This document shows, piece after piece, positions 4,474 through 32,000 of a stretch of DNA of 32,000 bases. The notes below the pieces were generated by a model. The model saw only the letters and a program-made list of their open reading frames with translations. It did not search any database and was not told the DNA's origin. Positions within the stretch are counted from its first letter, which is position 1. The number at the start of each line of letters is the position of its first letter. The stretch comes from Geobacter metallireducens GS-15 (GTDB lineage: Bacteria; Desulfobacterota; Desulfuromonadia; Geobacterales; Geobacteraceae), in assembly GCF_000012925.1 (NCBI RefSeq), contig NC_007517.1, forward strand, positions 3,870,001-3,902,000, in the 5' to 3' direction. The position numbers and the translations under genes were made by a program.

Positions 4474-4547
4474 GGTTATCTGTCTCCTGTTCTTTGATTT
4501 CTGAGTTTGAAGTAATCACGCCCGCATGGTTTTCCGGGCGCCCATGG

Positions 4548-4940: not shown

Positions 4941-4994
4941 TAAATTGCCATGTTTTATTCTACACTTATATACCCGGTACCGACTTGTAATTCC

Positions 4995-5008
4995 TTGACC
5001 GAGGTCAA
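4995..5008. promoter_or_regulatory. Inverted repeat TTGACC-GA-GGTCAA in the AT-richer region upstream of the His-rich cluster
   Basis: Read directly. It lies between the ABC permease stop (5057) and the start of the small His-rich gene (4940). A 2-nt spacer is too short for an RNA hairpin, so a protein-binding site is more likely. No convincing -35/-10 pair could be aligned. Confidence 0.3.
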
Positions 5009-5056
5009 AAACCGTCCCCTTTTCCCGTCGCGTTCATCGCCACGGACACCTCCATC

Positions 5057-6178: not shown

Positions 6179-6179
6179 C

Positions 6180-7289: not shown

Positions 7290-7307
7290 GGCGATAGTCC
7301 TTTGCTC

Positions 7308-7326
7308 CCCCCTTTTTTAAAGGGGG
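7308..7326 (-). other. Intercistronic hairpin CCCCCTTT-TTT-AAAGGGGG between ATPase and permease genes
   Basis: Read directly from the 53-nt gap 7290-7342. An 8-bp stem; the function is unknown. Confidence 0.3.
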
Positions 7327-7342
7327 ACTTTGCAAGCATTGT

Positions 7343-12654: not shown

Positions 12655-14493
12655 ATGGGAGAGTGGCATCTGGACATGGGGGCGACCCCCCTTGCCGGGG
12701 GAGTTCGCTTCAGGGTATGGGCCCCTTTGGCCGAGTCGGTGGCGGTCATCCCCTGCGGGAAAGAGGCATCGTACCCCCTCTCCCGGGCCGGCGAATACTT
12801 CCAGGGGACCATCGCCGGCATGGCCCCGGGAGACCGTTACTGGTACCTGCTTGACGGCACTCTCCGGCGTCCCGACCCCGCGTCACGGAGCCAGCCCGAC
12901 GGGGTCCACGGTCCATCCCAAGTGGTGGCTCCGGTCTCCTTCTGCTGGACCGATGGCCAGTGGCGGGGGCTGAAGCTTGAAGAACTGATCACCTACGAGC
13001 TCCACGTGGGGACCTTCACCCCCGTGGGTACCTTCACGGCGGCAATCAGGCGCCTCGATTACCTGGCGGAGCTGGGAGTGACCGCGGTGGAGCTCATGCC
13101 GGTGGCGGAGTTTCCCGGCACCCGCAACTGGGGGTATGACGGGGTTTTCCCCTTTGCCCCGCACCACGCCTACGGAGGGGCGAACGGGCTCAAGGCCCTG
13201 GTGGACGCCTGCCACCGGCGGGGGCTCGCCGTGATCCTCGACGTGGTCTACAACCACCTCGGCCCCGAGGGGAACTATCTCCACCCCTTTGCCCCCTACT
13301 TCACCGACCGCTACCGCACGCCGTGGGGAGATGCCGTCAACTTCGACGGACCCGACAGCAACGGGGTGCGCCACTACGTAATCGCCAACGCCCTCCACTG
13401 GGTAAGCGAGTACCACGTGGACGGCCTGCGCCTCGACGCCATCCACGGCATCTACGACTTCAGCGCCCGCCACATCCTTCTGGACATCAGCCAGGCGGTC
13501 GATTCCCTGGCCCGGCAGCTGGGGAGGAAGGTCCACGTCATCGCCGAGAGCGACCTGAACGACGTGCGGACCATCACGCCGCCGGAATGGGGGGGACACG
13601 GCTGCCACGCCCAGTGGTGCGACGATTTCCACCACGGGCTCATGACGTACCTCACCGGGGAACGTCAGGGGTATTACGCGGATTTCGGCCTCTTCGGCCA
13701 TCTGGAGAAGGCTTTTCGGGAAGGGTTCGTTTACTCCGGCCAATACTCCCGCCACCGCCGGCGCCGCCACGGCAGCCCGTCGGCGGCCCGTCCACCCCGG
13801 CAGCTGGTGGTCTTCTCCCAGAACCACGACCAGGTGGGAAACCGGCTACGGGGGGACCGCCCCTCGCTCCGCCTCTCCCTGGAGCAGCTCAAGCTGGCCG
13901 CCGGCGCGGTCATCCTCTCCCCCTACCTCCCCCTTCTCTTCATGGGGGAGGAGTACAGCGAAACCGCACCCTTTCCCTACTTCACGAGCCACGGCGACCC
14001 GGAGCTGGCGGAGGCGGTGCGGCAGGGGCGCCGGGAAGAGTTCGCCTCCTTCGGCTGGGAGGCCGAGGTGCCTGACCCCCAGGCCGAAGAGACCTTCCTC
14101 GCCGCCAGAATCGACCCGGAGCGCCGTCACCAGGGGTGGCACCGCTCCCTGTACGCCTTTTACCGGGAAGTGATCCGGCTCCGCCGGGAGCTTCCGCACC
14201 TGCGCCACCCCGAGCGGGAGGAGGTGGCGGTGGTCGGGCTGGAAGCGGACCGGGTCATCGCCCTCCGCTATCGCCATGGCGGGAGAGAACTCATCACCCT
14301 CTTTGCCCTGGGGAAAACTCCCCGCACCGTCCGGCTCCCCTTCAGACACGGCGAATGCCGCAAGCTCCTCGATTCGGCCGGGAAGAGCTGGGGCGGTCCG
14401 GGGAGCATCGCGCCGGAACGAATCGGCGCTGACGGCGATGGCGCAGGCCTCACCCTCGCGCCCTTCAGCGTCACGCTCTACGGCACAGGGTAA
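12655..14493 (+). CDS. treZ: Malto-oligosyltrehalose trehalohydrolase (GH13)
   Basis: GVRFRVWAP...PDPASRSQPDGVHGPSQVV...YELHVGTFTPVGTF...WGYDGVFPFAP...LDVVYNHLGPEGNYL...WGDAVNFD are characteristic TreZ blocks. It lies next to treY. Confidence 0.9.
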   Translation: MGEWHLDMGATPLAGGVRFRVWAPLAESVAVIPCGKEASYPLSRAGEYFQGTIAGMAPGDRYWYLLDGTLRRPDPASRSQPDGVHGPSQVVAPVSFCWTDGQWRGLKLEELITYELHVGTFTPVGTFTAAIRRLDYLAELGVTAVELMPVAEFPGTRNWGYDGVFPFAPHHAYGGANGLKALVDACHRRGLAVILDVVYNHLGPEGNYLHPFAPYFTDRYRTPWGDAVNFDGPDSNGVRHYVIANALHWVSEYHVDGLRLDAIHGIYDFSARHILLDISQAVDSLARQLGRKVHVIAESDLNDVRTITPPEWGGHGCHAQWCDDFHHGLMTYLTGERQGYYADFGLFGHLEKAFREGFVYSGQYSRHRRRRHGSPSAARPPRQLVVFSQNHDQVGNRLRGDRPSLRLSLEQLKLAAGAVILSPYLPLLFMGEEYSETAPFPYFTSHGDPELAEAVRQGRREEFASFGWEAEVPDPQAEETFLAARIDPERRHQGWHRSLYAFYREVIRLRRELPHLRHPEREEVAVVGLEADRVIALRYRHGGRELITLFALGKTPRTVRLPFRHGECRKLLDSAGKSWGGPGSIAPERIGADGDGAGLTLAPFSVTLYGTG

Positions 14494-14520
14494 GAGCTAC
14501 GCCGCCTCACGGAGTCACCC

Positions 14521-17505: not shown

Positions 17506-17531
17506 AGGGATGAGTGACAAGGAGGTACCCC

Positions 17532-20870
<3,339 letters not shown>

Positions 20871-20937: not shown

Positions 20938-20949
20938 ATCTGCGTGCCC

Positions 20950-22791
20950 ATGAAACAGCAACCCCCTCGACGAGCTCCGCTCTGGCCCACGCCATTGGTC
21001 CTGATCCACGACCTCCACCTGCTTCGCCGGTTCGTTCGGCTACGGCGGAGTGTCCTGGCCCTCCTCTCCCGTCTGCGGATCAGCGAGAGCACCCTCATGG
21101 CAGTTCTGGCCGTGGGGATAGGGCTCCTGGCGGGACTCTGCAACTACGCCTTCCGTTCGTGCATCGATTTTTTCCGCTGGCTCATCATCGACAACGGTGC
21201 CCGACTGACCGGCTATTCCCCCGACACCTGGGACGCAAGCCGGCTCTGGGCGTTGGCCTTTCCCGTCATCGGCGCGACCATCATGCTCCCCCTCTTCATC
21301 TGGTACCGAGAGGACATGGCCTTCGGCTTCCCCCGTTTCCTTGAGAGGGTCAACCTGAGGGGGGGACGACTTCCCCTGCGGCTCATGTTCACCAGGGGGA
21401 TTTCGTCGGCCCTCACCATCGGCTCCGGCGGCTCGGCCGGCCAGGAAGGCCCCATCGCCCAGATCGGCGGCACGGCCGGCTCCGTGGTTGGCCATCTGCT
21501 CGGCATGCCGGAGGAACGGCTCAAGGTCCTGATCGGCTGCGGAGTTTCCGGCGGCGTGGCAGCCACCTTCAACGCCCCCCTCGCCGGCGTCTTTTTTGCC
21601 CACGAAATTGTCCTTCTCTCCAGCTTCGAGCTTTCCTCTTTCACGAGCATCGTCATCTCATCCGGCATGGCCACGGTCGTCTCCCGGGCCATGTACGGCG
21701 ACATCCCCGCCTTTGACGTACCGGCCTACCAGCTCGTCCACCCCCTGGAACTGGTCTTGTATGCCCTGTTAGGGATCGTGTGCGGCTGCGTCGCGGCCCT
21801 CTTCATCACTGGCTATGGAAAAACCAGGGAGTTTTTCGAGCAGCTCCGGGTGAATCCCCTCTGGAAGCCGCTGCTCGGGGGATTCCTCGCCGGCTGTGTC
21901 GGGGTCCTCCTCCCCCAGGTCCAGGGAAACGGGTACGGATTCATTGAAAAGGCCGTCGGCAACGACGTGGGATGGCTCCTTGTCACGCTCCTCATCGTCG
22001 GGAAGATGGCCGCCACCTGCGTCACGATCGGCTCGGGGCTGCCGGGGGGAACCTTCGCCCCGTCGCTTTTCATAGGGTCAGTGACCGGCATGAGTTTCGG
22101 TTTCCTGGCAAACCTCCTCTTTCCGCTCCATACCGCAACGCCGGGGGCCTATGCCCTGGTGGGAATGGGGGCGTTCCTCGCCTCGGTCACCCATGCGCCC
22201 ATGACCGGCATCTTCCTCCTGTTTGAGATGACCGGTTCCTACAAGGTTATCATTCCGATCATGCTTGCCTGCTCCATCGGCACTGCCGTGGCGCGCCATT
22301 TCCGCAAGGACGGCATCGACACCGCCGACCTTGCAGCCCGGGGGATCGACCTGAGAACGGGGCGCGAGGAGACGATACTGGAGAAGATCCAGGTGAGGGG
22401 AGTCATGATGCACGATGCGGAGGTTCTCCCCGAATCGATGACCATCCGTGAGTTTCTGGAACGCGCCCATACCCCTCGCCAGCACACCTTTCCCCTGGTA
22501 GACGCCGGCGGCGGCCTGGCCGGCGTCGTCACGATCCATGACTTCCTGGGCGTCGCCTTCGAACCGGACATCCTGGACAAGGTTCCCCTCGGGGAAATGG
22601 CCACCGACGACGTCATCACCGTGCAGGGCGACGAAAGCCTCGCCGCTGCGCTCAGGAAGATGGACCTCACCCCCATCGAAGAACTGCCGGTTGTCGATTC
22701 CGGCAATGGAAAGGTTATCGGGATTCTGTCGCGACGGGAAGTCATTGCCGCCTACAACCGGGCGATCGTGGAACGGACGTTCCGGGCGTGA
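20950..22791 (+). CDS. ClC-family chloride channel / Cl-/H+ antiporter with C-terminal CBS-domain pair
   Basis: ClC selectivity motifs GSGGSAGQEGP and GLPGGTFAPSLFIG, with multiple TM helices. The C-terminus has two CBS-like repeats (VMMHDAEVLPESMTIREFLE..., TDDVITVQGDESLAAALRKM...LPVVD). The start could also be GTG 20944. Confidence 0.9.
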   Translation: MKQQPPRRAPLWPTPLVLIHDLHLLRRFVRLRRSVLALLSRLRISESTLMAVLAVGIGLLAGLCNYAFRSCIDFFRWLIIDNGARLTGYSPDTWDASRLWALAFPVIGATIMLPLFIWYREDMAFGFPRFLERVNLRGGRLPLRLMFTRGISSALTIGSGGSAGQEGPIAQIGGTAGSVVGHLLGMPEERLKVLIGCGVSGGVAATFNAPLAGVFFAHEIVLLSSFELSSFTSIVISSGMATVVSRAMYGDIPAFDVPAYQLVHPLELVLYALLGIVCGCVAALFITGYGKTREFFEQLRVNPLWKPLLGGFLAGCVGVLLPQVQGNGYGFIEKAVGNDVGWLLVTLLIVGKMAATCVTIGSGLPGGTFAPSLFIGSVTGMSFGFLANLLFPLHTATPGAYALVGMGAFLASVTHAPMTGIFLLFEMTGSYKVIIPIMLACSIGTAVARHFRKDGIDTADLAARGIDLRTGREETILEKIQVRGVMMHDAEVLPESMTIREFLERAHTPRQHTFPLVDAGGGLAGVVTIHDFLGVAFEPDILDKVPLGEMATDDVITVQGDESLAAALRKMDLTPIEELPVVDSGNGKVIGILSRREVIAAYNRAIVERTFRA

Positions 22792-23261: not shown

Positions 23262-23282
23262 AGTGAGCATGAAGATAACAAT

Positions 23283-23315
23283 AAAAGCCCATGGACACAG
23301 CATCCATGGGCTTTT
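23283..23315. terminator. Bidirectional rho-independent terminator
   Basis: AAAAGCCCATGGA-CACAGCA-TCCATGGGCTTTT: a perfect 13-bp stem with a 7-nt loop and T-runs on both strands. It sits between the convergent + block and - block. Confidence 0.7.
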
Positions 23316-23505
23316 ATGCGTTCAATTACGCTGCAATATGGCGATTGGAGACGGACACTTCAAGCTCAATTACATAATGTTATCGGCCAGTTAACATTTG
23401 CAGTCCAAATTAACAAATCGTTGATGTTGATCGGCTTCAAAGGCAGACCCACCCCGAAATGCCCCGTGACAAACCGTGCAACCGTGCAATGTCTCCACAA
23501 ACCCG

Positions 23506-24069
23506 TCAGGTCTTCTGATACTCTCTGTTGCATCGTTCAATGAAATTGTTGATGTCTTCAACCGAAATCTCCGGCAGAACCAGAGCGCCATCGGCATCTT
23601 TCTCCACGTCGGTGATCCCGGGGTACTTCTGTTCCAGAGCGCTCAGTTCCTGGCTCTGGCGTTTCACCGTTCGCAGGAGACGCCGGTTATCCTCTTCGAG
23701 CACCAACCTGTCAAAAGCTGAGCGTAGCGCAAATCTCAACTCCAGGTCATCCCACGGCTTGGTGAAGAAGCGGTAGATTTCCCCCTGGTTCACCGCCCTC
23801 ATGGTGGCATCGATAGAGGCATGACCCGTGAGCATGATCCTGATCGTCTCGGGGTACCGCTCGCGGACAGCAGCAAGAAATTCGGCTCCCCCCATGCCCG
23901 GCATCTTCTCGTCGGACACCACCACACCGACCCGGTGCTCAGCGAAAAGCGCCAACCCCTCTTGACCGCTTCCGGCAGTCAGTATCTCGTAGGGCTCGTC
24001 CGCGAGGGCCCTCCGGAGCGAATTAATGACAAAGGGCTCGTCATCCACCAGCAGCAGGGTCTTTTTCAT
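23506..24069 (-). CDS. Response regulator: REC domain + coiled coil + small unassigned C-terminal domain
   Basis: The ATG at 24069 (MKKTLLLVDDEP...) has GGAGGAAA upstream and forms an ATGA overlap with the upstream stop. I prefer it over the track start at 24159. REC motifs LVDDE, VVVSDEKMPGMGG and FTKPWDDLEL. C-terminus: SALEQKYPGITDVEKDADGALVLPEISVEDINNFIERCNREYQKT. Confidence 0.9.
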   Translation of the reverse strand: MKKTLLLVDDEPFVINSLRRALADEPYEILTAGSGQEGLALFAEHRVGVVVSDEKMPGMGGAEFLAAVRERYPETIRIMLTGHASIDATMRAVNQGEIYRFFTKPWDDLELRFALRSAFDRLVLEEDNRRLLRTVKRQSQELSALEQKYPGITDVEKDADGALVLPEISVEDINNFIERCNREYQKT

Positions 24070-26537
24070 ATTTCCTCCATCAAAGTCAGGCTGTCCGTCC
24101 CCTTCTCCACCCCGCAGAAGGGGCAAACGGACCACTCCTCCTCCAGGGGCATCTTGCATCCCTTACAGCAGTTGCTCTTGAAAGTCCCGCAGAAGGGGCA
24201 GAAGAGGAACTTGGCGTCCACCATCTTCCCGCAGTGGGGGCAGGCCCGCTCGTAGACCATCTGGGGGCCAATCACCCGCAGGAGCTCCTCCAGGGTCGTG
24301 AGCCCCAGCCTTACCTTCTCAATCCCGTCCTCGATGAGCGTCTTCATGCCGTTGGCCCGCGCCATCTCGAAGAGCTCTGACTCCCGGTAGTGACTGCTGA
24401 TGAAGTGGCGGAAGTCATCGTTCATAACGAAGAGTTCGAACACCCCGATCCGCCCCCGGTAGCCGGTCTTGTTGCACTTGTCGCACCCCTTCCCCTGGTA
24501 GACGGTTCCATTCAGGTAGTCGGCGGGAACCCGCAGAAGCTCCAGGAGGTCCCGGTCGGGGGGGACGGCGGTCTTGCACGCCTCGCAGACCCGCCGCACG
24601 AGCCGCTGGGCCATGATCCCCTCCAGGGCCGAGGCGATGATGTACGGCTTGATCCCCATATCCATGAGGCGGGTGATGGAGGCGACGGCGCTGTTGGTGT
24701 GGAGGGTGGAGAGGACCATGTGGCCCGTGAGCGATGCTTTGAACGCCACGTCGGCGGTCTCCTGGTCGCGGATCTCCCCCACCATGATCACGTCCGGATC
24801 CTGGCGCAGCGTCGAGCGGAGCACTTGGGCAAAGGAGAGGCCGATCTTCTCCCGGACCGCCACCTGGTTCGCCTCCTCCAGGAAGTACTCCACCGGCTCC
24901 TCGATGGTCTCGAAGTTCTTGTGGCTGTCCATCATGGCAGACAGCAGCGAGTAGAGCATGGTGGTTTTGCCGCTCCCGGTGGGGCCTGTGGAGATGATGA
25001 CCCCCTGGGGCTTTTTGCTGAGAACGGTCAGCTTCCTCATGTCATCGGGAAGTACCCCCAGTTCGTCCAACCCCTTGATGGAAGCGCTCTTGTCGAGGAT
25101 CCGCATCACCACTTTCTCGCCGTTCATGGTGGGGAGGGTCGAGACCCGCATGTCTACGATCCTGGTTCCGGCCTTGACCGTGATCCGGCCGTCCTGGGGT
25201 TTACGCCGCTCGGAAATGTCCATCTTGGCGAGAATCTTCACCCGCGAAACCACCGCCGCGTGGATGTCGGAGGGGATCCTGATTTTACCGTGGAGAAGCC
25301 CGTCGATCCGGTAGCGGATCACGGTGCACTTGGTCTTGGGCTCGATGTGGATGTCGCTGGCCCGGTAGCGGACCGCCTCGGAGATGACAGCGTTGACGAC
25401 CCTGATGATGGGAGGGACTTTGGAGGAGCCGATCAACTCGTCGACGCTCACGTCGGCCTCTTCGTCCTCAATGACGATGTCAATCTCGTCCAGGGGCTCC
25501 AGTTCGCCGAATTCGTCGAGCTCCTCTCCGCCACCGGAAACGATGGCGGCGGCCCCCTCGCCGTAGATCCGAGCGAGCTGGGCCTGGATCTCGGAACTGG
25601 TGGAGAGGAGGGGCATCACCTTGAGGCCCAGGACCCGGGAGATATTGTCGATCTTGAAGATGTCGGAGGGGTCGGCCATGGCAATGGTGAGCCGGTTACC
25701 GTCGAGCCGCACCGGGATGAGGCGGTGCCTGTCGCACATGTCGCGGGGGAGACACCGCACCACCCCGGGGGTGATGTTCGCCTCCCGCAGGTCGATGAAC
25801 TCGACGCCCAGGTGGTTCTGGAGGGTCTTGAGAATCTTCGCCTCGGTGGAGACGCTGGTCCTCACCAGGGCGTCCACCAGGAGCTCTCCTGGTTTCTTCC
25901 CCTGGAGCACCGCGGCGAAGTCATCCTTGCGGATCACCCCCGCCTCGGTCAGGATGCTCCCGAGCATCGACTTGTCCTCATCGAAGAGCCCGGCGAAGTT
26001 CCTGATCTTCGTCTGCTGGGCCTTGGCGATCTCCTTGAGCTTCTTGTTCTCCTGGATGAGAGCATACTGTTGGAGCGCGAGACTCACTGTGAGGCGCAGG
26101 TCCTCGTCGTTCCACGGCTTGGTGATGAACTTGAAGACCGCCCCCTCCCTCACCGCCCCCATGATCGACTGGACGTCGGCGTAGCCGGTCAGCATGATCC
26201 GGATGGTATCGGGCCACTTCTGTTTGATCTCCTTGAGGAGCTGAGCGCCGGTCATCCCCGGCATCCGGTGGTCGGAGACGACCAAGTGCACCGAATGTTT
26301 TCCAAGGATCTCCAAAGCCTTTTCGGCCGATTCGGCGGTGAGGATCTCGTAGTTCTCGTCGATAAAAATACGCCGCAACGCCCTTAGGACCCCCTCCTCG
26401 TCGTCGACGAAGAGGAGGGTGAACCTGCTCTCGGTCTCGCTGTACTCCACCAGCGAGGCGTCGTCATCGGGCAAAAGGGGCGGCGGGGGCTCCTTGCCGG
26501 CAGCAACGGTTTTGAAGAGTTCCGAAAACTTTGCCAT
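24066..26537 (-). CDS. REC-domain-fused GspE/PilB-type secretion ATPase with C-terminal double zinc ribbon
   Basis: REC: LLFVDDEEGVLRAL...VVSDHRMPGMTG...FITKPWNDEDL. T2SSE_N-like: LGVEFIDLREANITPGVVRCLPRDMCDRHRLIPVRLDGNRLTIAMADPSD. ATPase: Walker A GPTGSGKTT, Walker B DPDVIMVGEIRD, His box LTGHMVLSTLHTN, tetra-Cys CEACK...CDKCNKTGYRGRIGVFE. Extra tail: CPHCGKMVDAKFLFCPFCG...CKGCKMPLEEEWSVCPFCG. Confidence 0.9.
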   Translation of the reverse strand: MAKFSELFKTVAAGKEPPPPLLPDDDASLVEYSETESRFTLLFVDDEEGVLRALRRIFIDENYEILTAESAEKALEILGKHSVHLVVSDHRMPGMTGAQLLKEIKQKWPDTIRIMLTGYADVQSIMGAVREGAVFKFITKPWNDEDLRLTVSLALQQYALIQENKKLKEIAKAQQTKIRNFAGLFDEDKSMLGSILTEAGVIRKDDFAAVLQGKKPGELLVDALVRTSVSTEAKILKTLQNHLGVEFIDLREANITPGVVRCLPRDMCDRHRLIPVRLDGNRLTIAMADPSDIFKIDNISRVLGLKVMPLLSTSSEIQAQLARIYGEGAAAIVSGGGEELDEFGELEPLDEIDIVIEDEEADVSVDELIGSSKVPPIIRVVNAVISEAVRYRASDIHIEPKTKCTVIRYRIDGLLHGKIRIPSDIHAAVVSRVKILAKMDISERRKPQDGRITVKAGTRIVDMRVSTLPTMNGEKVVMRILDKSASIKGLDELGVLPDDMRKLTVLSKKPQGVIISTGPTGSGKTTMLYSLLSAMMDSHKNFETIEEPVEYFLEEANQVAVREKIGLSFAQVLRSTLRQDPDVIMVGEIRDQETADVAFKASLTGHMVLSTLHTNSAVASITRLMDMGIKPYIIASALEGIMAQRLVRRVCEACKTAVPPDRDLLELLRVPADYLNGTVYQGKGCDKCNKTGYRGRIGVFELFVMNDDFRHFISSHYRESELFEMARANGMKTLIEDGIEKVRLGLTTLEELLRVIGPQMVYERACPHCGKMVDAKFLFCPFCGTFKSNCCKGCKMPLEEEWSVCPFCGVEKGTDSLTLMEEI

Positions 26538-26538
26538 G

Positions 26539-27858
26539 CTATCCCCCTGTCACCGGCAGTCTCACCACGAAAGAGGCACCTCCTTCGGGCGTGCTTCCAG
26601 CCTCCACCGTGCCGCCGTGGGCGGTTACTACCTCGTGGGCCACCGCAAGCCCCATCCCCATCCCCTGGCCCACCGGCTTGGTGGTGAAGAAGGGTTCGAA
26701 GACGCGGTCCAGGAGCTCCGGCAGGATGCCGGGGCCGTTGTCGGTGATGGTTATGGCGATGGCATCCCCCTCCAGGGCGGTGCGGATGGTGAGCCTGAGC
26801 CCCTCGCTCCGGGCCTGACAGGCGTTCATGATGATGTTGAGGAACACCTGGCAGAGTTCCCCCGCCCGGCAGCTGAGTCCCGGAATGGAGCCGTACTCCC
26901 TGGCGATCTCGGTCCCCGCCGGGATCTCGTGGACCAGCACGGCGAGGGTTCGGTCGATCTCGGCGTTCAGGTCCGCCACCGTTTCCCCTAGGTCGTCGAT
27001 GTGCGAGAACCCCTTCAGGTCGGCCACAATCTTTTTCACCCGCTCCGCCCCGCCGAGACTCTGGGATACAAGTTCGTCCACATCGGCAAGTACCATGTCG
27101 AGCTTCAACTGGCGCCACTTCTCGGCAAAGCGCTCCCCGCCCGCTCCTCCCCCCGCCACGGGGAAGAGATCCCGGGCGAACTGAAGCATCTCCACGAAGC
27201 GCCCTGCATACTTCTGCATCGTCCGGATGTTGCTCGTGACGAACCCCATGGGATTGTTGATCTCGTGGGCGATGCCAGCCGCCAGCTGCCCCACCGAGGC
27301 GAGCTTCTCCTGTTGCAGGAGTCGGGCCAGGGCCTTTTTCAGCTCCGCGGTCCGCTCCTCCACCTTGATCTCCAGGCTCTCCGCCAGCTCCCGATAGCGG
27401 GCCTCGGAGGCAGTAAGCTTCCGGTTAGTTTCCAGAAGCTCCTCGTAGGACTGGTTCACCACCGTCGTGTGGATCTCGGTGGTGAGCATCCTCTTCAGGT
27501 TCGAGCCCACCAGGAGGTTCACCGCAGCCGTGAGCATGACGGCAATCCCCTTCAGGAACTCCTCCCTTCCCCTCTCTCCCTTCACCAGAATCGACCCCAC
27601 CGGCTCCCCCTCCAGGAGGATGGCGGGCCCTCGGAGCCCCAGGGAGGCAGCTTCCCCTCCGTCGGTCGGCGCGGCATGGGACCAGAGAGTGGTTCCCTCG
27701 GCATCGGCGAGGGCCGCGGCACGGGCGCCGGCACGTACGGCACCCCTGAGGAGCGGGATCACCTCTGTCTCGGTGATGACGTCCCTGAGGAGCCGCTCTT
27801 CGCCGACCACGTAGTTGAGGCGCTTGGCCGATACGTTTGATGTATGTTGGTTTTTCAT
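26539..27858 (-). CDS. Soluble sensor histidine kinase with unassigned N-terminal domain of about 130 aa
   Basis: H-box EKLASVGQLAAGIAHEINNPMGF and HATPase motifs NIIMNACQA, DNGPGI, GQGMGMGLAVAHEVVTAHGG. No TM segment. ATG 27858 (AAGAGA upstream) is preferred; GTG 27888 is possible. Confidence 0.85.
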   Translation of the reverse strand: MKNQHTSNVSAKRLNYVVGEERLLRDVITETEVIPLLRGAVRAGARAAALADAEGTTLWSHAAPTDGGEAASLGLRGPAILLEGEPVGSILVKGERGREEFLKGIAVMLTAAVNLLVGSNLKRMLTTEIHTTVVNQSYEELLETNRKLTASEARYRELAESLEIKVEERTAELKKALARLLQQEKLASVGQLAAGIAHEINNPMGFVTSNIRTMQKYAGRFVEMLQFARDLFPVAGGGAGGERFAEKWRQLKLDMVLADVDELVSQSLGGAERVKKIVADLKGFSHIDDLGETVADLNAEIDRTLAVLVHEIPAGTEIAREYGSIPGLSCRAGELCQVFLNIIMNACQARSEGLRLTIRTALEGDAIAITITDNGPGILPELLDRVFEPFFTTKPVGQGMGMGLAVAHEVVTAHGGTVEAGSTPEGGASFVVRLPVTGG

Positions 27859-27936
27859 GATAGGTCTCTTTGAACATCCACTGGGCACACTCTATAGCGC
27901 CTCGCATCGCATGAGCAGAGCGCCATGAAGGCGCCC

Positions 27937-28614
27937 CTACACGAATCCAGCTATGCCCTGCGTCGCTTCAACCGATGTCATCTTTCGCACGAAGCTCTCG
28001 CTGCCGAGTCCGTGCTCATCCAGGAGCCGGTACTTCCGGTCGATGGCAGCATAGGTAAGCTCCAGAAGCCTAGTGAAGGTCTCCACCACACCCCACCCCT
28101 CCAGGGCCGATGCGCCCGTCACCTGGATCCCCGTGGGTTCCCAGACCCGGGCGATCTCTTCCTCGCTCACGATGTTTGTCAGGTCCCTCTTGTTGAACTG
28201 GATCACGAGGGGAACCTTTTCGATATCGATTCCCACGAAGGCAAGGTTTTTCTCCAGGTTGTCGAAACTCTCGAAATTGTTGGCCGCCTCGGAGAGTTGG
28301 GAATCAGCCACGAAGACCACTCCGTCTGCCCGTTGAAGAACCGCCTTGCGGGTTGCATCGTGGCGCACCTGCCCCGGCACTGTGTAGACCTTCACCTTGA
28401 TCTTCAAGCCGCTTGGCGCCACGAGGAAAAAGGGGAGGAGATCGAAGAATATGGTCCGGTCGTCAGTCGTGTCGAGGACCATCAGCTCTCCACGCCCCTC
28501 CTGGGTGATCAGGTCGTGGAGTTTCAGTAGATTTGTAGTCTTTCCCGACATGGCTGGTCCGTAGTAGACCAGCTTCAAGACCATCTTTTTTTGTGCTTCG
28601 TCGTATTCAATCAT
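27937..28614 (-). CDS. MglA-family Ras-like small GTPase with C-terminal extension
   Basis: It aligns along its length with M. xanthus MglA as I recall it: KLVYYGPAMSGKTTNL (P-loop), DRTIFFDLLP (switch I), VYTVPGQV (the MglA-specific TxxGQ in place of DxxGQ), GVVFVADSQ, IQFNKRDL (NKxD). 225 aa versus about 195 for MglA. Confidence 0.85.
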   Translation of the reverse strand: MIEYDEAQKKMVLKLVYYGPAMSGKTTNLLKLHDLITQEGRGELMVLDTTDDRTIFFDLLPFFLVAPSGLKIKVKVYTVPGQVRHDATRKAVLQRADGVVFVADSQLSEAANNFESFDNLEKNLAFVGIDIEKVPLVIQFNKRDLTNIVSEEEIARVWEPTGIQVTGASALEGWGVVETFTRLLELTYAAIDRKYRLLDEHGLGSESFVRKMTSVEATQGIAGFV

Positions 28615-28623
28615 TACCCACGC

Positions 28624-29934
28624 TCATACTTCCACGAAGACGCCGTGAGGGGGAGGGTCGAGGCGGTAGTAGCGGCGGATCGCCTCGATCTTGACCACAT
28701 CGAGGCGTACCCCCCGGTTGAGGAGAAGGAGGCCGGTGCCACTGTATATGTCGCGGGAGAGCACTTGGCCGACAAAAAGCTCGGCGATTCCCACCTCGAC
28801 CTCGCCGAGTTTCCTGGTATCCGTTTCCTTCACATAGTAGACGTGCTTGGCGAACTTGCGCAGGGACTCATAGAGGGACGGATCGAGCTTCTTCCCCAAC
28901 TCGGCGGCGACGCTCCGCAGGCCGTAGTCGATGGCAGTGTAACCGTGCAGCTTCTGTATGGCCCTATCGAGAAAATCGGCTATGGCGATGATGCGGGAGC
29001 CGAGGGGAATAGCCTCTCCCCGCAGGCCGTCGGGGTAACCGCTGCCGTCGTAATGCTCGTGGTGATGGCGGATGAGGACCCCGGCAGGGGTGAGCTCCTC
29101 AATGGCGTCAATGGCCGTCTGCCCCCTCACGGCATGGAGCATGTACTCTCTCAGCTCTCCCGGAGTCATCTCTGACAGGTCCTTCTTCAGGATCGCATCA
29201 GCTATCCCCAACTCCCCGATGTCGTGGAGCAGGGCCGCGTTGTGCACCGTCTCCACCTCCCCGGCGGAAACCCCCATTGCCTGGGCAATGTTCATGGCGA
29301 GGGTCGCCACGGTTTCGGCGTGACGCTTTTTCCCCCCCAGTTCTATAAGCCGGGAAAACGCCGTGACGGTGTCCTTGAAATTGCTCCGGAGCCGTTCGTT
29401 GAGCTCTTTCAGGTTTTCGTGTTTCTTCCGGATCTCGGTAGTCTGCTCGAGGACCCGCACCTTCAGGTTCTCATTCCACTCCTTGAGCTCCTCGTTCTGC
29501 TTGTTGACGATCTCCGTGAGGCGCCGGTTCTCCTGAACGAGCCGGTACTGGTTGACCGCGTCGCGGATGATCTGGACCAGTTCCTCGTCGTTCCACGGCT
29601 TGGTGATGTACCGATAGGCGCCGCCGCGATTGATGGCATCCACAGTTGCCGAAATGTCTGCGTATCCGGTCAGCATGATCCGGAGTGTCTCGGGGAACAT
29701 CTCCCGGACCTGGGCCAGAAACTGGACCCCGGTGATCTCGGGCATCCGCTGATCGGACACGATAACCCCCACGTCCTCCGTCTCCATGAGAATCCGCAGT
29801 CCTTCCCTGGCCGACGGAGCGGTGATGACCTCGAACTCCTCATCCATGAAAACCCTGCTCAGGGACTTGAGCATGTTTTCCTCGTCATCGACGAAAAGCA
29901 CCCGTACCGGTGCAGTTTCCGGCAGTTCATACAT
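28624..29934 (-). CDS. RpfG-type response regulator: REC + HD-GYP c-di-GMP phosphodiesterase + C-terminal extension
   Basis: ATG 29934 (MYELPE...) has GAGGGAG upstream, and I prefer it over the track start at 30063. REC: VLFVDDEENMLKSL...VIVSDQRMPEITG...YITKPWNDEEL. HD-GYP: LLHDIGE and HHHEHYDGSGYPDGLRGEAIPLGSRIIAIAD. Confidence 0.9.
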   Translation of the reverse strand: MYELPETAPVRVLFVDDEENMLKSLSRVFMDEEFEVITAPSAREGLRILMETEDVGVIVSDQRMPEITGVQFLAQVREMFPETLRIMLTGYADISATVDAINRGGAYRYITKPWNDEELVQIIRDAVNQYRLVQENRRLTEIVNKQNEELKEWNENLKVRVLEQTTEIRKKHENLKELNERLRSNFKDTVTAFSRLIELGGKKRHAETVATLAMNIAQAMGVSAGEVETVHNAALLHDIGELGIADAILKKDLSEMTPGELREYMLHAVRGQTAIDAIEELTPAGVLIRHHHEHYDGSGYPDGLRGEAIPLGSRIIAIADFLDRAIQKLHGYTAIDYGLRSVAAELGKKLDPSLYESLRKFAKHVYYVKETDTRKLGEVEVGIAELFVGQVLSRDIYSGTGLLLLNRGVRLDVVKIEAIRRYYRLDPPPHGVFVEV

Positions 29935-30067
29935 GAACGTGTACTCCCTCTTTACTATCGTTCGGCAATAATTCCCTTTTCTTGAATGCGGAAATATCCG
30001 CGGAGAGCCGCTCCAAGGAGTTGAGAATATGCTCTTCATCATCCACGAACAGAATTTTGGCACTCAT
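29927..30067 (-). pseudogene. Stub of a receiver-domain gene (46-codon ORF, only the first 21 codons or so are REC-like)
   Basis: The ATG at 30067 forms an ATGA overlap with the hybrid-kinase stop. The ORF reads MSAKILFVDDEEHILNSLERL, then unrelated SADISAFKKRELLPNDSKEGVHVHV*. The REC-like part parallels VRVLFVDDEENMLKSLSRVF of the next gene. The DNA after the stub is visibly AT-richer. Confidence 0.45.
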
Positions 30068-32000
30068 AGGGGTTCCTCCCCATTGAAGACAAGAACGATT
30101 CCCTCCTGCTCCCCCTCCTTGAGATACACCCCCAGACTCCGGACTCCGGCGACACCGGCCAATAGCCGGCACATGGAGGTCTTTTCCCGGGCGAGCTCGT
30201 CAATGAACGCACAGATCTCCGGCGACAGGGCTTCGGCTGCGCCTCTACCGACGACTGCGTATTCATCGAGCCCCAGAAGCCGCGCCGCACTCCGGTTGCA
30301 TTGGACCACCGTCCCCTCCGTGTCCATCCCCAGGACCCCCACCGGCAAAGCGTCGAGGATGTTCTGGGCGGCACTGAGGGCCCGGTTGCGGAACAGGACT
30401 TCCTCGGTCCGTTCGGCAACGATCGCCTCCAGGTTCTCGTTCATAAGGACGAGCTCCTCGTTGGACCGGCTCAACTCATCAAGGAGCTTGGCGTTATGCT
30501 TTTGGAGCTGGTACTTCTCCAGGGCGTTTATCACTGTAACCCTGAGTTCGTCGTCGGTCCACGGCTTGGGGACGAACTTGTAGATCTGCCCCTCGTTGAT
30601 GGCGGCGACAATGGCGGCCGTGTCGGCATACCCCGACAGGACGATGCGGACCGTGTCGGGCCACTGGGTACAGACCTTACGGAGAAAATCGACCCCGTTC
30701 ATGACCGGCATCCGGTAGTCAGAGATAACGATCTGCACCGGGGACTCCCGCTCGAGGATTTCCAGCCCCTCGGCCGCCGACGAAGCGGTAAGGATGTCGT
30801 AGTTGTCGTCGAGGAACATCCGTCCCAGCGACCGGAGCACGTTCATCTCATCATCCACACAGAGAATGCGTACCTGTTCGTCCATATCAGTTCCTCTCCC
30901 GGACAGGGACCGCACGGTGAAGGTGGTCCCCCGGCCTTGCTCGCTCTCCACGGTAATCTCGCCGCCGTGCTTCTTCACGATGTCGTAGCTGATGGAAAGC
31001 CCGAGCCCCGTCCCCTTTCCCACCTCCTTGGTGGTGAAGAAGGGCTCGAAGATCCGGGCTCTGATCTCCTCGGGAATCCCGCAGCCAGTGTCGGAAATGG
31101 CAATGAAGGCGTCCTCCCCCTCACGCCAGGTCCGGACGGTAATCTCTCCCTGGCTCTCGATGGCATGGCCGGCATTCACGAGGAGATTCATGAATACCTG
31201 GTTGAGCTGCTGGGGGTTGCACCGCAGGGGAGGGACGTCGCCGTACTCCTTCTTGAGAGTCGCTTTGTACTTCAACTCGTTCCAGACGATGTTGATGGTG
31301 CTGTCGAGGCACTCGCGCAGATCCACCACCTTCACCTCTGCCTCATCCACCCGGGAGAATCCCTTGAGATCCTGCACGATCTTCTTCACCCGCTCCGCCC
31401 CGTCGAGGGATTCGGTGATGAGGCCGTCGATGTCTCCCATGATGTACTCTATCTTCAGCGTCTTTTTTGCTTGGGCGAGGCGCTGCGACACCGCTTCCCC
31501 TTCCAGTTCGGCGATGGTCTCATCCTGGGCGGCGATGAATTCCCGAATCCGTCCCAGATACTTACCGAGGGTTCCGAGGTTGCTCATGATGAAACCGATG
31601 GGATTGTTGATCTCATGGGCCACGCCGGCGGCCAGCTGCCCGATGGAGGCCATTTTTTCCCGCTGGAGCATCTGTCCCTGGGCCTCCTTCAACTCGCCGT
31701 AGGCCTTCTCCAGGGCTTCGCCGACCTTTTTCAGCTCCGTGGTATCGTGAAGTGTGACGACGCTCCCACTCATCCCGCTTTCATTTTTTTGTCTGAAGGG
31801 GTAGATGGCGCAGAAGAACCAGCGTTCCGTCAACCTGTGGAAGAGCTCTCCTCCCTCTTGGGTGAACCGGATCCTCTCCATCTCGGGCGAGAGAACGATC
31901 GAACGCCACTCTCTCCCAAGGACATCCTGGTAGGGAAGACCGGCAAGCTCGACGACGGCCCGGTTGCAGCGCCGGATGTGTCCTTCGTTGTCCGTCAGGA
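30064..32000 (-). CDS. Hybrid sensor kinase PAS-HisKA-HATPase-REC-PAS (5' end outside window)
   Basis: The frame stays open upstream of the track start to the window edge (..LTDNEGHIRRCNRAVVELAGLPYQDVLGREWRSIVLSPEMERIRF.., PAS-like). H-box EKMASIGQLAAGVAHEINNPIGF; HATPase DTGCGI and GKGTGLGLSISYDIVKKHGG. REC: ILCVDDEMNVLRSL...VISDYRMPVMNG...FVPKPWTDDEL. A PAS-like segment of about 100 aa ends the protein. Confidence 0.9.
   Translation of the reverse strand, partial: LTDNEGHIRRCNRAVVELAGLPYQDVLGREWRSIVLSPEMERIRFTQEGGELFHRLTERWFFCAIYPFRQKNESGMSGSVVTLHDTTELKKVGEALEKAYGELKEAQGQMLQREKMASIGQLAAGVAHEINNPIGFIMSNLGTLGKYLGRIREFIAAQDETIAELEGEAVSQRLAQAKKTLKIEYIMGDIDGLITESLDGAERVKKIVQDLKGFSRVDEAEVKVVDLRECLDSTINIVWNELKYKATLKKEYGDVPPLRCNPQQLNQVFMNLLVNAGHAIESQGEITVRTWREGEDAFIAISDTGCGIPEEIRARIFEPFFTTKEVGKGTGLGLSISYDIVKKHGGEITVESEQGRGTTFTVRSLSGRGTDMDEQVRILCVDDEMNVLRSLGRMFLDDNYDILTASSAAEGLEILERESPVQIVISDYRMPVMNGVDFLRKVCTQWPDTVRIVLSGYADTAAIVAAINEGQIYKFVPKPWTDDELRVTVINALEKYQLQKHNAKLLDELSRSNEELVLMNENLEAIVAERTEEVLFRNRALSAAQNILDALPVGVLGMDTEGTVVQCNRSAARLLGLDEYAVVGRGAAEALSPEICAFIDELAREKTSMCRLLAGVAGVRSLGVYLKEGEQEGIVLVFNGEEPL

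What the first reader, a model, noticed from the sequence alone, without database searches (positions are those of the whole stretch)
23506..32000. Cytoplasmic operon joining two kinases, four paralogous receivers, an HD-GYP enzyme, an MglA-type GTPase and an orphan GspE/PilB-type ATPase
Six intact genes and one gene stub on the minus strand are packed very tightly: ATGA start/stop overlaps at 30064-30067 and 24066-24069, a 1-nt gap at 26538 and a 9-nt gap at 28615-28623. They therefore look like one translationally coupled unit. The order is PAS-HK-REC-PAS hybrid kinase > REC stub > REC-HD-GYP > MglA-like GTPase > soluble kinase > REC-T2SSE_N-GspE/PilB ATPase-double zinc ribbon > REC plus unknown C-terminal domain. 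I see no transmembrane segment in any product. The normal partners of the individual parts are missing from the cluster: no MglB/Roadblock GAP, no PilC/GspF platform, no pilin or secretin, no GGDEF cyclase. The four receivers are obvious paralogues (shared RI[MV]L[TS]G[YH]A and KPW[NDT]D[DEL][ED]L blocks). The two kinases share the H-box QLAAG[IV]AHEINNP. The module therefore seems to have expanded by internal duplication. The combination suggests a switch in which phosphorelay, c-di-GMP hydrolysis and a Ras-like GTPase converge on a hexameric motor ATPase. I do not know of a characterised system with this composition.
Basis: partly seen in the sequence, partly recalled or inferred. Interest (0 to 1): 0.8.

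Follow-up and report, generated by a model that had tools for sequence, protein, structure and literature searches.

The report
Conserved GTPase–kinase–PilB-like ATPase signalling operon
This Geobacter metallireducens operon (Gmet_3472–3476 plus a membrane sensor kinase) belongs to a gene cluster conserved across several bacterial phyla, which always links an MglA-type small GTPase to a histidine kinase and a receiver-fused PilB/GspE-type ATPase; I found no paper that studies the cluster as a system.

Summary
Three points need correction. First, the first gene runs off the window. Its full 1443-aa product is a membrane dCache sensor kinase, so the operon is not purely cytoplasmic. Second, the "hybrid" kinase is a lineage-specific fusion of a kinase with a normally separate REC-PAS gene. 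The "REC stub" is what remains of a second, canonical REC-HD-GYP gene after an ~850-bp internal deletion. Third, the surviving HD-GYP (Gmet_3476) carries RxxQ instead of RxxK and is reported in the literature as cGAMP-selective, not a c-di-GMP enzyme.

The cluster is strongly conserved. In 65 species-level loci with enough flanking DNA, the GTPase is followed by the kinase in 64, and the REC-MshEN-T2SSE ATPase lies in the cluster in 64. These loci span Geobacterales, Nitrospirota, Desulfobacterales and Beta-/Gammaproteobacteria. No inspected locus encodes MglB, PilC/GspF or a pilin.

Individual parts are already catalogued: Gmet_3473 is the published exemplar of the REC-MshEN-T2SSE architecture. 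Ten literature searches found no description of the ensemble.

Best reading: a multi-kinase phosphorelay, coupled to an MglA-family switch, gates a PilB-like motor. The composition is shown; the mechanism is inferred.

The parts
30064..32000 (-). 3' part (644 codons) of the membrane sensor kinase. The full protein is 1443 aa: TM-dCache_1-TM, several PAS, HisKA/HATPase_c, then a fused REC-PAS.
   Evidence: The ORF is open to the window end. The full gene is in L001 at 4185-8516 with dCache_1 and TM helices at residues 10-28 and 287-305. Pfam domains. It is the orthologue of the G. sulfurreducens 1174-aa kinase (69-84% identity), joined to the 273-aa REC-PAS gene (77% identity).
30883..30900 (-). 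Fusion junction. It holds the relict out-of-frame TGA (30887-30889) and the relict ATG (30883-30885) of the once separate REC-PAS gene.
   Evidence: The G. sulfurreducens sequence GGTTGATATGGAT reads GGAACTGATATGGAC here. The fused ORF also appears in independent assemblies L002-L006.
29927..30067 (-). 46-codon remnant of a second, canonical REC-HD-GYP gene (329 aa in G. sulfurreducens).
   Evidence: Residues 1-24 are 87.5% identical to the N-terminus of the 329-aa protein, and residues 16-45 match its C-terminus. At the DNA level both flanks align at 76-78% identity and about 858 bp are missing. Pfam finds no domain.
29985..29995 (-). Deletion scar inside the stub.
   Evidence: The blastn breakpoints at L001 8585/8595 convert to these window coordinates.
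28624..29934 (-). Gmet_3476 (ABB33684): REC-HD-GYP response regulator and cyclic-dinucleotide phosphodiesterase. HD is at residue 237 and GYP at residues 299-301.
   Evidence: Pfam REC + HD_5. NCBIfam NF053512 scores 478 bits against a cutoff of 400. Motifs. Identity. Reported cGAMP selectivity.
28954..28965 (-). RAIQ (residues 324-327). This is the RxxQ variant of the RxxK substrate-specificity motif.
   Evidence: Read from the sequence. Meaning of the motif: Galperin preprint and Wright et al. preprint.
27937..28614 (-). Gmet_3475 (ABB33683): MglA-family small GTPase, 225 aa, with a clade-specific C-terminal extension of about 30 aa.
   Evidence: phmmer against the PDB gives E = 1e-44 to M. 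xanthus and T. thermophilus MglA. It is 45% identical to MglA and keeps R53/T54, PGQ82 and NKRD. Close relatives are 70-80% identical.
26539..27858 (-). Gmet_3474 (ABB33682): soluble histidine kinase, 439 aa. It has an N-terminal alpha/beta domain, a long conserved helix, DHp and HATPase_c.
   Evidence: Pfam. NCBIfam T2SS_HK scores 257 bits, below the cutoff of 450. It follows the GTPase in 64 of 65 loci.
27469..27813 (-). Cluster-specific N-terminal domain of the kinase (residues 16-130), with the conserved E-x-E-P-x-G hairpin.
   Evidence: AF2 models have pLDDT 86-87 and an a-b-b-b-b-a topology. No Pfam match. No Foldseek hit at E <= 1e-3; the top hits are PAS, GAF and MglB. The domain occurs almost only at the N-terminus of kinases of about 400-460 aa.
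24066..26537 (-). Gmet_3473 (ABB33681): REC-MshEN-T2SSE ATPase with a C-terminal double zinc ribbon, 823 aa.
   Evidence: Pfam T2SSE 438 bits, REC, MshEN, DZR. It falls below the PilB and GspE equivalog cutoffs. Walker A/B, a tetracysteine site and four more CxxC are present. It is the published exemplar of this architecture.
25548..25985 (-). MshEN region of the ATPase (residues 185-330), with degenerate dinucleotide-binding motifs.
   Evidence: Pfam MshEN 80.7 bits. Motif 1 matches 9 of 11 relaxed positions, and both signature Arg are hydrophobic in all 63 orthologues.
24102..24248 (-). Double zinc ribbon tail (four CxxC).
   Evidence: The tail is present in 43 of 61 orthologous loci: 34 of 38 in the close group and 9 of 23 in the rest.
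23506..24069 (-). Gmet_3472 (ABB33680): small response regulator made of REC, a coiled coil and the C-terminal motif PGITxVxxDxDG.
   Evidence: Pfam finds REC only. The same family lies directly upstream of the GTPase in Pseudomonas and Marinobacter, at 39% identity with the motif conserved.
23281..23317 (-). Terminator-like hairpin with a 17-bp stem, about 190 nt after the last stop codon.

Best explanation
This is the Geobacter metallireducens copy of a widely conserved signalling operon whose most likely output is a receiver-gated PilB/GspE-class hexameric ATPase.

Shown:
- The operon encodes a membrane dCache/PAS sensor kinase, fused here to a REC-PAS regulator. It also encodes an RpfG-type REC-HD-GYP phosphodiesterase, an MglA-family GTPase with intact catalytic Arg/Thr/Gln, and a soluble kinase with a family-specific N-terminal domain. 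The last two genes encode a REC-MshEN-T2SSE ATPase with intact ATPase motifs and a small REC protein.
- All four receivers keep the phospho-acceptor residues and belong to one subfamily.
- The triad GTPase > kinase > REC-ATPase is nearly invariant across phyla.

Inferred:
- The sensor kinase(s) and the soluble kinase phosphorylate the paralogous receivers. This would switch on the phosphodiesterase (cGAMP-selective in this species) and the ATPase together.
- The GTPase and the adjacent kinase form a coupled pair. The nucleotide state of the GTPase is read, or set, by the kinase's N-terminal domain. This resembles the kinase-GTPase pairing of the actinobacterial conservon, and the small REC protein would play a RomR-like accessory role.
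- The ATPase has no platform protein of its own. It would act on a type IV pilus or type II secretion machine encoded elsewhere, as an alternative, signal-gated motor.
For: Composition and motifs.

Single transcription unit: overlapping or near-abutting junctions, and only one strong terminator, after the last gene.

Conservation:
- In 65 loci with at least 3.3 kb downstream, the kinase is present in 64. The T2SSE ATPase is downstream in 63, and upstream in one more, L043.
- An HD-GYP lies within 3.5 kb upstream in 56 of 75 loci.
- The same families appear with Pfam labels in G. sulfurreducens, Nitrospirota, Pseudomonas, Marinobacter and Vreelandella.
- The small REC protein is conserved between the delta and gamma versions.

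Other points:
- The kinase N-terminal domain occurs almost only in this kinase family.
- GTPase and kinase genes overlap by 8 nt in the gamma versions.
- Precedents come from papers found here. MglA stimulates type IV pili (PMC7668184, PMC7519303, listed). The RomR receiver links to MglA (10.1101/2024.02.20.581209). The conservon pairs a kinase with an MglA-like GTPase (PMC4316618).
Against: - There is no experimental datum for any interaction or phosphotransfer in this cluster.
- No platform, pilin or secretin gene occurs in any inspected locus, so the ATPase's target is unknown.
- The ATPase scores below the NCBIfam equivalog cutoffs for both PilB and GspE, so it may not be a filament motor at all.
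- The fold of the kinase N-terminal domain cannot be told apart from PAS or GAF. No Foldseek hit reaches E <= 1e-3, so a GTPase-binding role is a guess.
- In this genome a 78-nt gap separates the GTPase from the kinase.
Confidence: 0.5

Rival explanations
1. The PilB-like ATPase is not a filament motor. It is a signalling ATPase: a nucleotide- and phosphorylation-dependent switch that passes information to other proteins. The whole cluster would then be a self-contained cytoplasmic decision module with no pilus or secretion output.
For: - None of the loci inspected with Pfam labels, or by ORF and domain search, has a platform, pilin or secretin gene.
- The ATPase is below the PilB and GspE equivalog cutoffs.
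- It carries extra regulatory parts (REC, MshEN, double zinc ribbon) that canonical motors lack.
- From my own knowledge, not checked here: M. xanthus PilB has been proposed to act as a signalling protein for exopolysaccharide production.
Against: - The T2SSE domain is highly conserved (69-89% identity within the close group, 53-62% to the distant group).
- It has intact Walker A/B and the tetracysteine site.
- It matches PilB and PilF structures over its full length at E = 1e-134 to 1e-144. That is what a working hexameric motor would look like.
Confidence: 0.2
2. One reading: a c-di-GMP-centred switch. The HD-GYP enzyme lowers c-di-GMP, and the MshEN domain of the ATPase senses that drop.
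For: - The Pfam MshEN domain is present at 80.7 bits.
- The HD and GYP motifs are intact.
- NCBIfam names the enzyme a c-di-GMP phosphodiesterase of the NosR family.
- The gammaproteobacterial versions carry a REC-PAS-GGDEF-EAL gene at the end of the cluster.
Against: - Gmet_3476 has RxxQ and is reported as cGAMP-selective.
- The canonical RxxK/R paralogue has been deleted in this genome.
- Both Arg of the tandem MshEN motif are replaced by hydrophobic residues in all 63 orthologues, and the Gln positions are shifted.
- Wang et al. note that some listed architectures lack a recognisable binding motif.
Confidence: 0.15
3. The genes are a loose island of independent two-component genes that sit together without a shared function.
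For: - Geobacter genomes are rich in two-component genes. The window holds another PAS kinase at 437-1885.
- Flanking sensor kinases differ between lineages.
Against: - Order and content of the core are kept in about 64 of 65 species-level loci across phyla.
- Start/stop overlaps are kept even around the deleted gene.
- The kinase N-terminal domain, the GTPase C-terminal extension and the small-REC motif are family-specific features that travel together.
Confidence: 0.05

Closest known systems
MglA/MglB/RomR polarity module of Myxococcus xanthus (MglA-GTP stimulates type IV pili via SgmX)
   Same: - The GTPase is a true MglA-family member: E = 1e-44, 45% identity, same intrinsic Arg finger, Thr and PGQ glutamine.
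- Receiver-domain proteins and a PilB-class ATPase belong to the same functional neighbourhood.
   Different: - No MglB/Roadblock GAP, RomX or SgmX-like TPR gene is in the cluster.
- The GTPase has a GPA[LM]SGKTT P-loop and a conserved C-terminal extension of about 30 aa.
- It is always followed by a histidine kinase.
- The clade also occurs in organisms that are not known gliders, such as Nitrospira, Marinobacter and Pseudomonas.
Actinobacterial conservon (CvnA kinase, CvnB Roadblock, CvnC, CvnD MglA-like GTPase)
   Same: A histidine kinase and an MglA-family GTPase are encoded together as a conserved unit (PMC4316618).
   Different: - There is no separate Roadblock or CvnC protein.
- The kinase is soluble and lacks HAMP.
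- Several response regulators are present, whereas the conservon has none.
- The GTPase keeps the Arg finger.
- The cluster contains an HD-GYP enzyme and a T2SSE ATPase.
MshE/PilB-type ATPases with an MshEN c-di-GMP receptor domain (V. cholerae MshE, P. aeruginosa PA14_29490)
   Same: Same MshEN + T2SSE core. Gmet_3473 is listed by the same authors as the exemplar of REC-MshEN-T2SSE.
   Different: - It has an N-terminal receiver and a C-terminal double zinc ribbon.
- Both motif arginines are missing.
- It is not encoded in a pil, msh or gsp operon.
- It is below the PilB and GspE equivalog cutoffs.
RpfG/NosR-type REC-HD-GYP response regulators and the cGAMP-specific HD-GYP phosphodiesterases (GAPs: PmxA, Bd2325)
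   Same: - REC-HD-GYP architecture with intact HD and GYP motifs.
- It passes the NCBIfam NosR-family cutoff.
- It carries the RxxQ signature of GAPs, and this very protein was screened.
   Different: - No NosP (FIST) or NosK partner, and no RpfC partner.
- It is embedded next to a GTPase and a PilB-like ATPase.
- The specificity position varies among orthologues (Q, K, R, E, H).

Membership tests
MglA family of small Ras-like GTPases | Sequence similarity to characterised MglA over the whole G domain | tested here: met
   phmmer E = 1e-44 to M. xanthus MglA (6h17, 5ymx) and 1.7e-42 to T. thermophilus MglA (3t12), over residues 8-188. Identity is 45%.
MglA family of small Ras-like GTPases | Intrinsic Arg finger and Thr in switch I (DRT), catalytic Gln in PGQ, and NKxD | tested here: met
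   R53, T54, Q82 and N141-K-R-D144 are invariant in 22 relatives and align with MglA.
MglA family of small Ras-like GTPases | Cognate MglB (Roadblock/LC7) GAP encoded within a few genes (390 of 449 MglA members in Wuichet & Sogaard-Andersen) | tested here: not met
   No Robl_LC7 gene appears in any locus listed with Pfam labels. The kinase N-terminal domain resembles MglB only weakly (TM 0.47-0.57, E >= 0.05) and resembles PAS and GAF equally well.
PilB / GspE secretion-superfamily ATPases | T2SSE domain with Walker A, Walker B and the tetracysteine Zn site | tested here: met
   PF00437 at 438 bits. GPTGSGKTT, DPDVIMVGEIRD, and CEAC...CDKC are present. Full-length matches to PilF and PilB structures at E = 1e-134 to 1e-144.
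PilB / GspE secretion-superfamily ATPases | Passes the curated equivalog threshold for PilB or GspE | tested here: not met
   TIGR02538 PilB scores 569.6 against a cutoff of 675.65. TIGR02533 GspE scores 555.2 against 630.25. The result is the same for the P. indica orthologue.
PilB / GspE secretion-superfamily ATPases | Encoded with a platform protein (PilC/GspF) and pilins or pseudopilins | tested here: not met
   None is present in the window or in the inspected related loci. The rest of the genome could not be searched.
MshEN c-di-GMP receptor domain | Pfam MshEN domain | tested here: met
   PF05157 at 80.7 bits, residues 243-329.
MshEN c-di-GMP receptor domain | Tandem 24-residue motif RLGxxLVxxGLIxxxxLxxxLxxQ, including Arg9/Arg38 and Gln32/Gln61 | tested here: not met
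   Neither the strict nor the relaxed motif matches. Motif 1 matches 9 of 11 relaxed positions with Met in place of Arg. In 63 orthologues the first position is M/I/V or Q/H, and the second motif also lacks Arg. Binding itself is not testable here.
HD-GYP cyclic-dinucleotide phosphodiesterases (RpfG/NosR type) | REC + HD-GYP architecture with HD and GYP motifs; curated family score | tested here: met
   Pfam REC + HD_5. HDIG at residue 237 and GSGYP at residue 297. NF053512 scores 478 bits against a cutoff of 400.
HD-GYP cyclic-dinucleotide phosphodiesterases (RpfG/NosR type) | RxxK/R motif that specifies c-di-GMP | tested here: not met
   The sequence is RAIQ at residues 324-327. The literature assigns Gmet_3476 to the RxxQ, cGAMP-shifted group.
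NosP-NosK-NosR nitric-oxide pathway | Adjacent NosP (FIST haem sensor) and its kinase NosK | tested here: not met
   No FIST-domain gene is in the locus. The pathway is described in PMC12570481.
Actinobacterial conservon | Four-gene set: CvnA membrane HAMP kinase, CvnB Roadblock, CvnC, CvnD GTPase | tested here: not met
   Only the kinase-plus-GTPase adjacency is shared. The kinase is soluble, and there is no Roadblock or CvnC gene.

The most novel reading that the evidence does not exclude
The triad of MglA-type GTPase, kinase with a cluster-specific N-terminal domain, and REC-fused PilB-like ATPase may be a previously unrecognised and very widespread kind of pathway. In this reading the small GTPase is wired directly into a two-component phosphorelay. 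The kinase's N-terminal domain serves as the GTPase's effector or GAP in place of MglB, and the small REC protein acts as a RomR-like exchange-factor scaffold. The phosphorylation-gated hexameric ATPase is the output, possibly acting without any dedicated pilus or secretion apparatus.
Probability: 0.3. Interest if true: 0.8.

Novelty: new variant of a known kind. Interest (0 to 1): 0.62.

Why it matters
MglA-type GTPases are understood almost only through the Myxococcus polarity module with its MglB GAP. Earlier work set aside 59 "orphan" MglA homologues without analysing them.

This clade has at least several hundred species-level members in Desulfuromonadota, Nitrospirota, Desulfobacterota and Beta-/Gammaproteobacteria. 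It is tied almost without exception to a kinase and a receiver-fused PilB-like ATPase. That gives a concrete, testable case of a bacterial small GTPase coupled to two-component signalling and to a secretion-superfamily motor.

In Geobacter the link to a cGAMP-selective phosphodiesterase is also relevant. It places the cluster next to the cyclic-dinucleotide circuits that control surface-associated growth and extracellular electron transfer. It also raises the question of whether this ATPase drives or regulates the pilus or pseudopilus machinery implicated in filament export. That last idea is my inference and was not tested.

Culturable, genetically tractable hosts carry the system: G. metallireducens, G. 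sulfurreducens, Pseudomonas/Stutzerimonas and Marinobacter.

Tried and rejected
1. Missing MglB fused to the kinase. I tested whether the kinase's N-terminal domain is a Roadblock fold. Two AF2 models (pLDDT 86-87) gave Foldseek hits to MglB/MglC (TM 0.47-0.57), but equally to PAS (DosP) and GAF (DosS/DosT). None reached E <= 1e-3. Pfam finds nothing. An all-library phmmer search finds the domain only at the N-terminus of this kinase family, with no convincing stand-alone proteins. The result is inconclusive, so I make no claim.
2. Curated name for the kinase. NCBIfam T2SS_HK is the best hit but lies far below its cutoff in Gmet, Bacteriovoracaceae, P. indica and Marinobacter. I rejected membership.
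3. 'NosR family' label. It passes the score cutoff, but there is no NosP or NosK partner. I treat it as a generic RpfG-type match.
4. Riboswitch or other RNA control, such as a cGAMP/GEMM element. Rfam gives no hit at gathering score in the window or in L001.
5. Promoters. Sigma-70 and sigma-54 consensus scans are at chance level, so the promoter is not located.
6. G. sulfurreducens PCA locus tags. I wanted them to look up Tn-seq or transcriptome data. The G. sulfurreducens copy found is from another strain (AP017912) and carries no PCA accessions. I abandoned this.
7. The published Wright et al. 2020 paper (PMC7209772) is not held. I used the preprint and Galperin's citation instead.
8. My simple longest-ORF gene calling failed in high-GC loci such as L091 and L068. 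The synteny statistics therefore rest on tblastn and on pre-called genes.

Full report
**Identity of the locus**

The five downstream proteins match GenBank entries of Geobacter metallireducens exactly, in both GS-15 and RCH3:
- ABB33680 (Gmet_3472): small REC protein
- ABB33681 (Gmet_3473): ATPase
- ABB33682 (Gmet_3474): kinase
- ABB33683 (Gmet_3475): GTPase, named "MglA-related GTPase" by UniProt
- ABB33684 (Gmet_3476): REC-HD-GYP

A 43-kb RCH3 contig (L001) extends the window upstream.

**Check of the observation**

ORF listing, Pfam and direct reading confirm the gene order and the domains.

The junctions, in nucleotides between successive genes, are as follows:

| Junction | Distance | Note |
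|---|---|---|
| sensor kinase / stub | -4 | ATGA at 30064-30067 |
| stub / REC-HD-GYP | -8 | ATGTATGA |
| REC-HD-GYP / GTPase | +9 | |
| GTPase / kinase | +78 | |
| kinase / ATPase | +1 | |
| ATPase / small REC | -4 | ATGA at 24066-24069 |

- The four receivers are 42-49% identical. They keep the acidic pocket, the phospho-acceptor Asp, the Thr/Ser and the Lys of KPW.
- Both kinases share QLAAG[IV]AHEINNP, and their catalytic cores are 44% identical.
- The only strong terminator-like hairpin on the coding strand (17-bp stem, 23281-23317) follows the last gene. Promoter-like and terminator-like matches inside the cluster are at shuffle level.

- The first ORF is open to base 32000. Its full product is 1443 aa, with a dCache_1 domain flanked by two hydrophobic helices at residues 10-28 and 287-305. 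The operon therefore starts with a membrane sensor. A second dCache-HAMP-PAS kinase of 1025 aa lies just upstream.
- The 78-nt gap before the kinase was not noted.

**Origin of the odd features**

G. sulfurreducens (L007) and other relatives have this order: sensor kinase(s), a free-standing REC-PAS protein (272-274 aa), a short REC-HD-GYP (about 317-331 aa), a long REC-HD-GYP (about 436 aa), then the GTPase.

*The hybrid kinase is a gene fusion.*
- Residues 1-1162 of the G. metallireducens kinase are 72% identical to the G. sulfurreducens 1174-aa kinase.
- Residues 1171-1440 are 77% identical to the free-standing REC-PAS protein.
- At the DNA level, GGTTGATATGGAT (stop, then start) in G. sulfurreducens reads GGAACTGATATGGAC here. 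A small indel put the TGA out of frame and fused the two genes.
- Independent assemblies show the same long ORF, so this is not a sequencing error.

*The 46-codon stub is a deletion remnant.*
- It is the short REC-HD-GYP gene with about 858 bp removed.
- Its first 24 residues are 87.5% identical to the N-terminus of that protein, and its end matches the C-terminus.
- Both DNA flanks align at 76-78% identity.
- The start and stop overlaps with the neighbouring genes were kept.

**The phosphodiesterase**

Gmet_3476 has intact HD and GYP motifs and passes the NCBIfam cutoff for the "NosR family" of REC-HD-GYP regulators. The locus has no NosP/FIST partner.

Where c-di-GMP-specific enzymes have DALTSxRPY[K/R], the long paralogue has ADFLDRAIQ, which is RxxQ.
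- Galperin's survey names Gmet_3476 among proteins whose RxxQ/N motif shifted specificity to 3',3'-cGAMP.
- The Wright et al. preprint reports the G. metallireducens candidate as cGAMP-selective in an E. coli biosensor screen.
- The deleted short paralogue is the canonical RxxK/R type in every relative.
- This genome has therefore lost the presumed c-di-GMP enzyme of the cluster and kept the variant one.
- Among orthologues the specificity position varies (Q, K, R, E, H).

**The GTPase**

It is a genuine MglA-family member. The PDB search gives E = 1e-44, and it is 45% identical to M. xanthus MglA. The switch I Arg-Thr, PGQ and NKRD motifs are conserved.

The clade has three features of its own:
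- a GPA[LM]SGKTT P-loop
- a conserved C-terminal extension of about 30 aa (HG[LI]D..F[VI]..L[TS])
- very high conservation: 70-80% identity among Geobacter and Nitrospirota members, and 51-54% to gammaproteobacterial members

No MglB gene is present in any inspected locus.

**The kinase**

Gmet_3474 is soluble. Its first ~130 residues have no Pfam match.

AlphaFold models (pLDDT 86-87) show a small a-b-b-b-b-a module with a conserved E-x-E-P-x-G hairpin, leading into a long and highly conserved helix.

Foldseek gives only weak hits: PAS of DosP, GAF of DosS/DosT, and MglB/MglC at TM 0.47-0.57. None reaches E <= 1e-3. A search of 1.84 billion representatives finds the domain essentially only at the N-terminus of kinases of the same size.

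It is therefore a cluster-specific sensor or partner-binding domain. A Roadblock-like role is possible but unproven.

**The ATPase**

Gmet_3473 has a full T2SSE domain with Walker A/B and the tetracysteine site. It also has four more CxxC in a C-terminal double zinc ribbon. It aligns end to end with PilF and PilB structures, but falls below the curated PilB and GspE cutoffs.

Wang et al. 2016 list this very protein as the exemplar of the REC-MshEN-T2SSE architecture. They add that some listed proteins lack a recognisable binding motif.

In my analysis, motif 1 matches 9 of 11 relaxed positions. Across 63 orthologues both signature arginines are replaced by hydrophobic residues, and the glutamines are out of register. 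Dinucleotide binding is therefore open.

**Conservation**

| Feature | Loci with the feature / loci with enough flanking DNA |
|---|---|
| Kinase directly after the GTPase | 64 / 65 |
| T2SSE ATPase downstream | 63 / 65 (60 at the usual offset) |
| HD-GYP within 3.5 kb upstream | 56 / 75 |
| Zinc ribbon tail | 43 / 61 |

- The 65 loci are those among the best 80 with at least 3.3 kb downstream.
- Of the two loci with no ATPase downstream, L043 has it upstream in the same cluster. Only L039 lacks both the kinase and the ATPase.
- Hosts include Geobacterales, Nitrospirota/Thermodesulfovibrionales, Syntrophales, Desulfobacterales and Bacteriovoracaceae. Among the Beta- and Gammaproteobacteria they include Gallionella, Janthinobacterium, Chromatiales, Pseudomonas, Marinobacter and Vreelandella.
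- In the gammaproteobacterial version the order is: kinase, REC-HD-GYP, small REC, GTPase, kinase, REC-MshEN-T2SSE, PAS/GAF kinase, REC, REC-PAS-GGDEF-EAL.
- The small REC protein is the same family as Gmet_3472: 39% identity, with the C-terminal motif PGITxVxRDxxG conserved.
- Orthologous receivers are more alike across phyla (54-67%) than paralogues within this genome. The duplications are therefore ancient.

**Interpretation**

*Shown:* a conserved, co-oriented, tightly packed set of genes. It encodes sensor kinase(s), several receivers of one subfamily, a cyclic-dinucleotide phosphodiesterase, an MglA-type GTPase, a dedicated soluble kinase and a receiver-fused secretion-superfamily ATPase. 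All have intact catalytic motifs.

*Inferred:* the kinases phosphorylate the receivers and so switch the phosphodiesterase and the ATPase. The GTPase and the adjacent kinase act as a coupled pair. The ATPase works on a pilus or secretion machine encoded elsewhere.

*Main rival:* the ATPase is itself a signalling device with no filament.

**Comparison with known systems**

The cluster works partly like three known systems. These are the MglA polarity module (a small GTPase acting on type IV pili), the conservon (kinase plus MglA-like GTPase) and MshE-type regulated ATPases. It fails a defining test of each: no MglB, no Roadblock/CvnC, and no intact MshEN motif or pil/gsp context.

Ten full-text searches found no paper that treats the ensemble. 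Wuichet and Sogaard-Andersen set aside 59 "orphan" MglA homologues without analysing them.

**Verdict**

The finding is real, the parts are known, and the conserved system appears undescribed. The novelty lies in the conserved combination and its breadth, not in any single domain. Every mechanistic step beyond composition is inference.

Noticed in passing
L001 170-690 (beyond the window, upstream of the 1025-aa kinase): Short ORFs with YgjP-like and integrase-core (rve_3) Pfam hits lie next to the cluster. They look like an insertion-sequence remnant, which might relate to the local rearrangements (kinase order, fusion, deletion).
   Followed up: no
window 17514-20870 (+) and 12655-17505 (+): There is a 1118-aa alpha-amylase-family protein with a maltokinase-like N-cap (a TreS-Mak-type fusion). 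Two more alpha-amylase-family genes lie next to it. Together they form a trehalose/alpha-glucan gene set, unrelated to the finding.
   Followed up: partly
window 5057-11509 (-): An efflux operon: outer-membrane factor (OEP), HlyD-type adaptor, two ABC ATPases and two ABC-2 permeases.
   Followed up: partly
window 20944-22791 (+): A CLC-type voltage-gated chloride channel with CBS domains, convergent with the operon.
   Followed up: no
L048 11961-15491, L051 11965-14628, L058: In three Geobacter MAGs an extra large kinase gene sits between the GTPase-linked kinase and the REC-ATPase, displacing the ATPase by about 3 kb. L022 (Nitrospira) has an extra 122-aa receiver at that position.
   Followed up: partly
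L043 3171-5600: In Candidatus Magnetomicrobium the REC-MshEN-T2SSE gene lies upstream of the sensor kinase instead of downstream of the GTPase-linked kinase. The cluster is permuted but complete.
   Followed up: partly
L027: A contig binned as 'Pedobacter sp.' carries a copy whose GTPase is 70% identical to the Geobacter one. This is probably a mis-binned contig rather than a Bacteroidota occurrence.
   Followed up: no
P0122: A 342-aa metagenomic protein joins the kinase N-terminal domain to a PdxJ domain on a 1.3-kb contig. It is most likely an assembly chimera.
   Followed up: no
L009 14813-15685, L010 14994-15881: In Nitrospirota and a related MAG an HDOD-domain gene follows the small REC gene (or its replacement) at the end of the cluster. 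It is absent from G. metallireducens.
   Followed up: no
L092 3315-4022, L093 5370-6056: A DUF6901 gene sits on the opposite strand just upstream of the gammaproteobacterial clusters in both Pseudomonas and Marinobacter.
   Followed up: no
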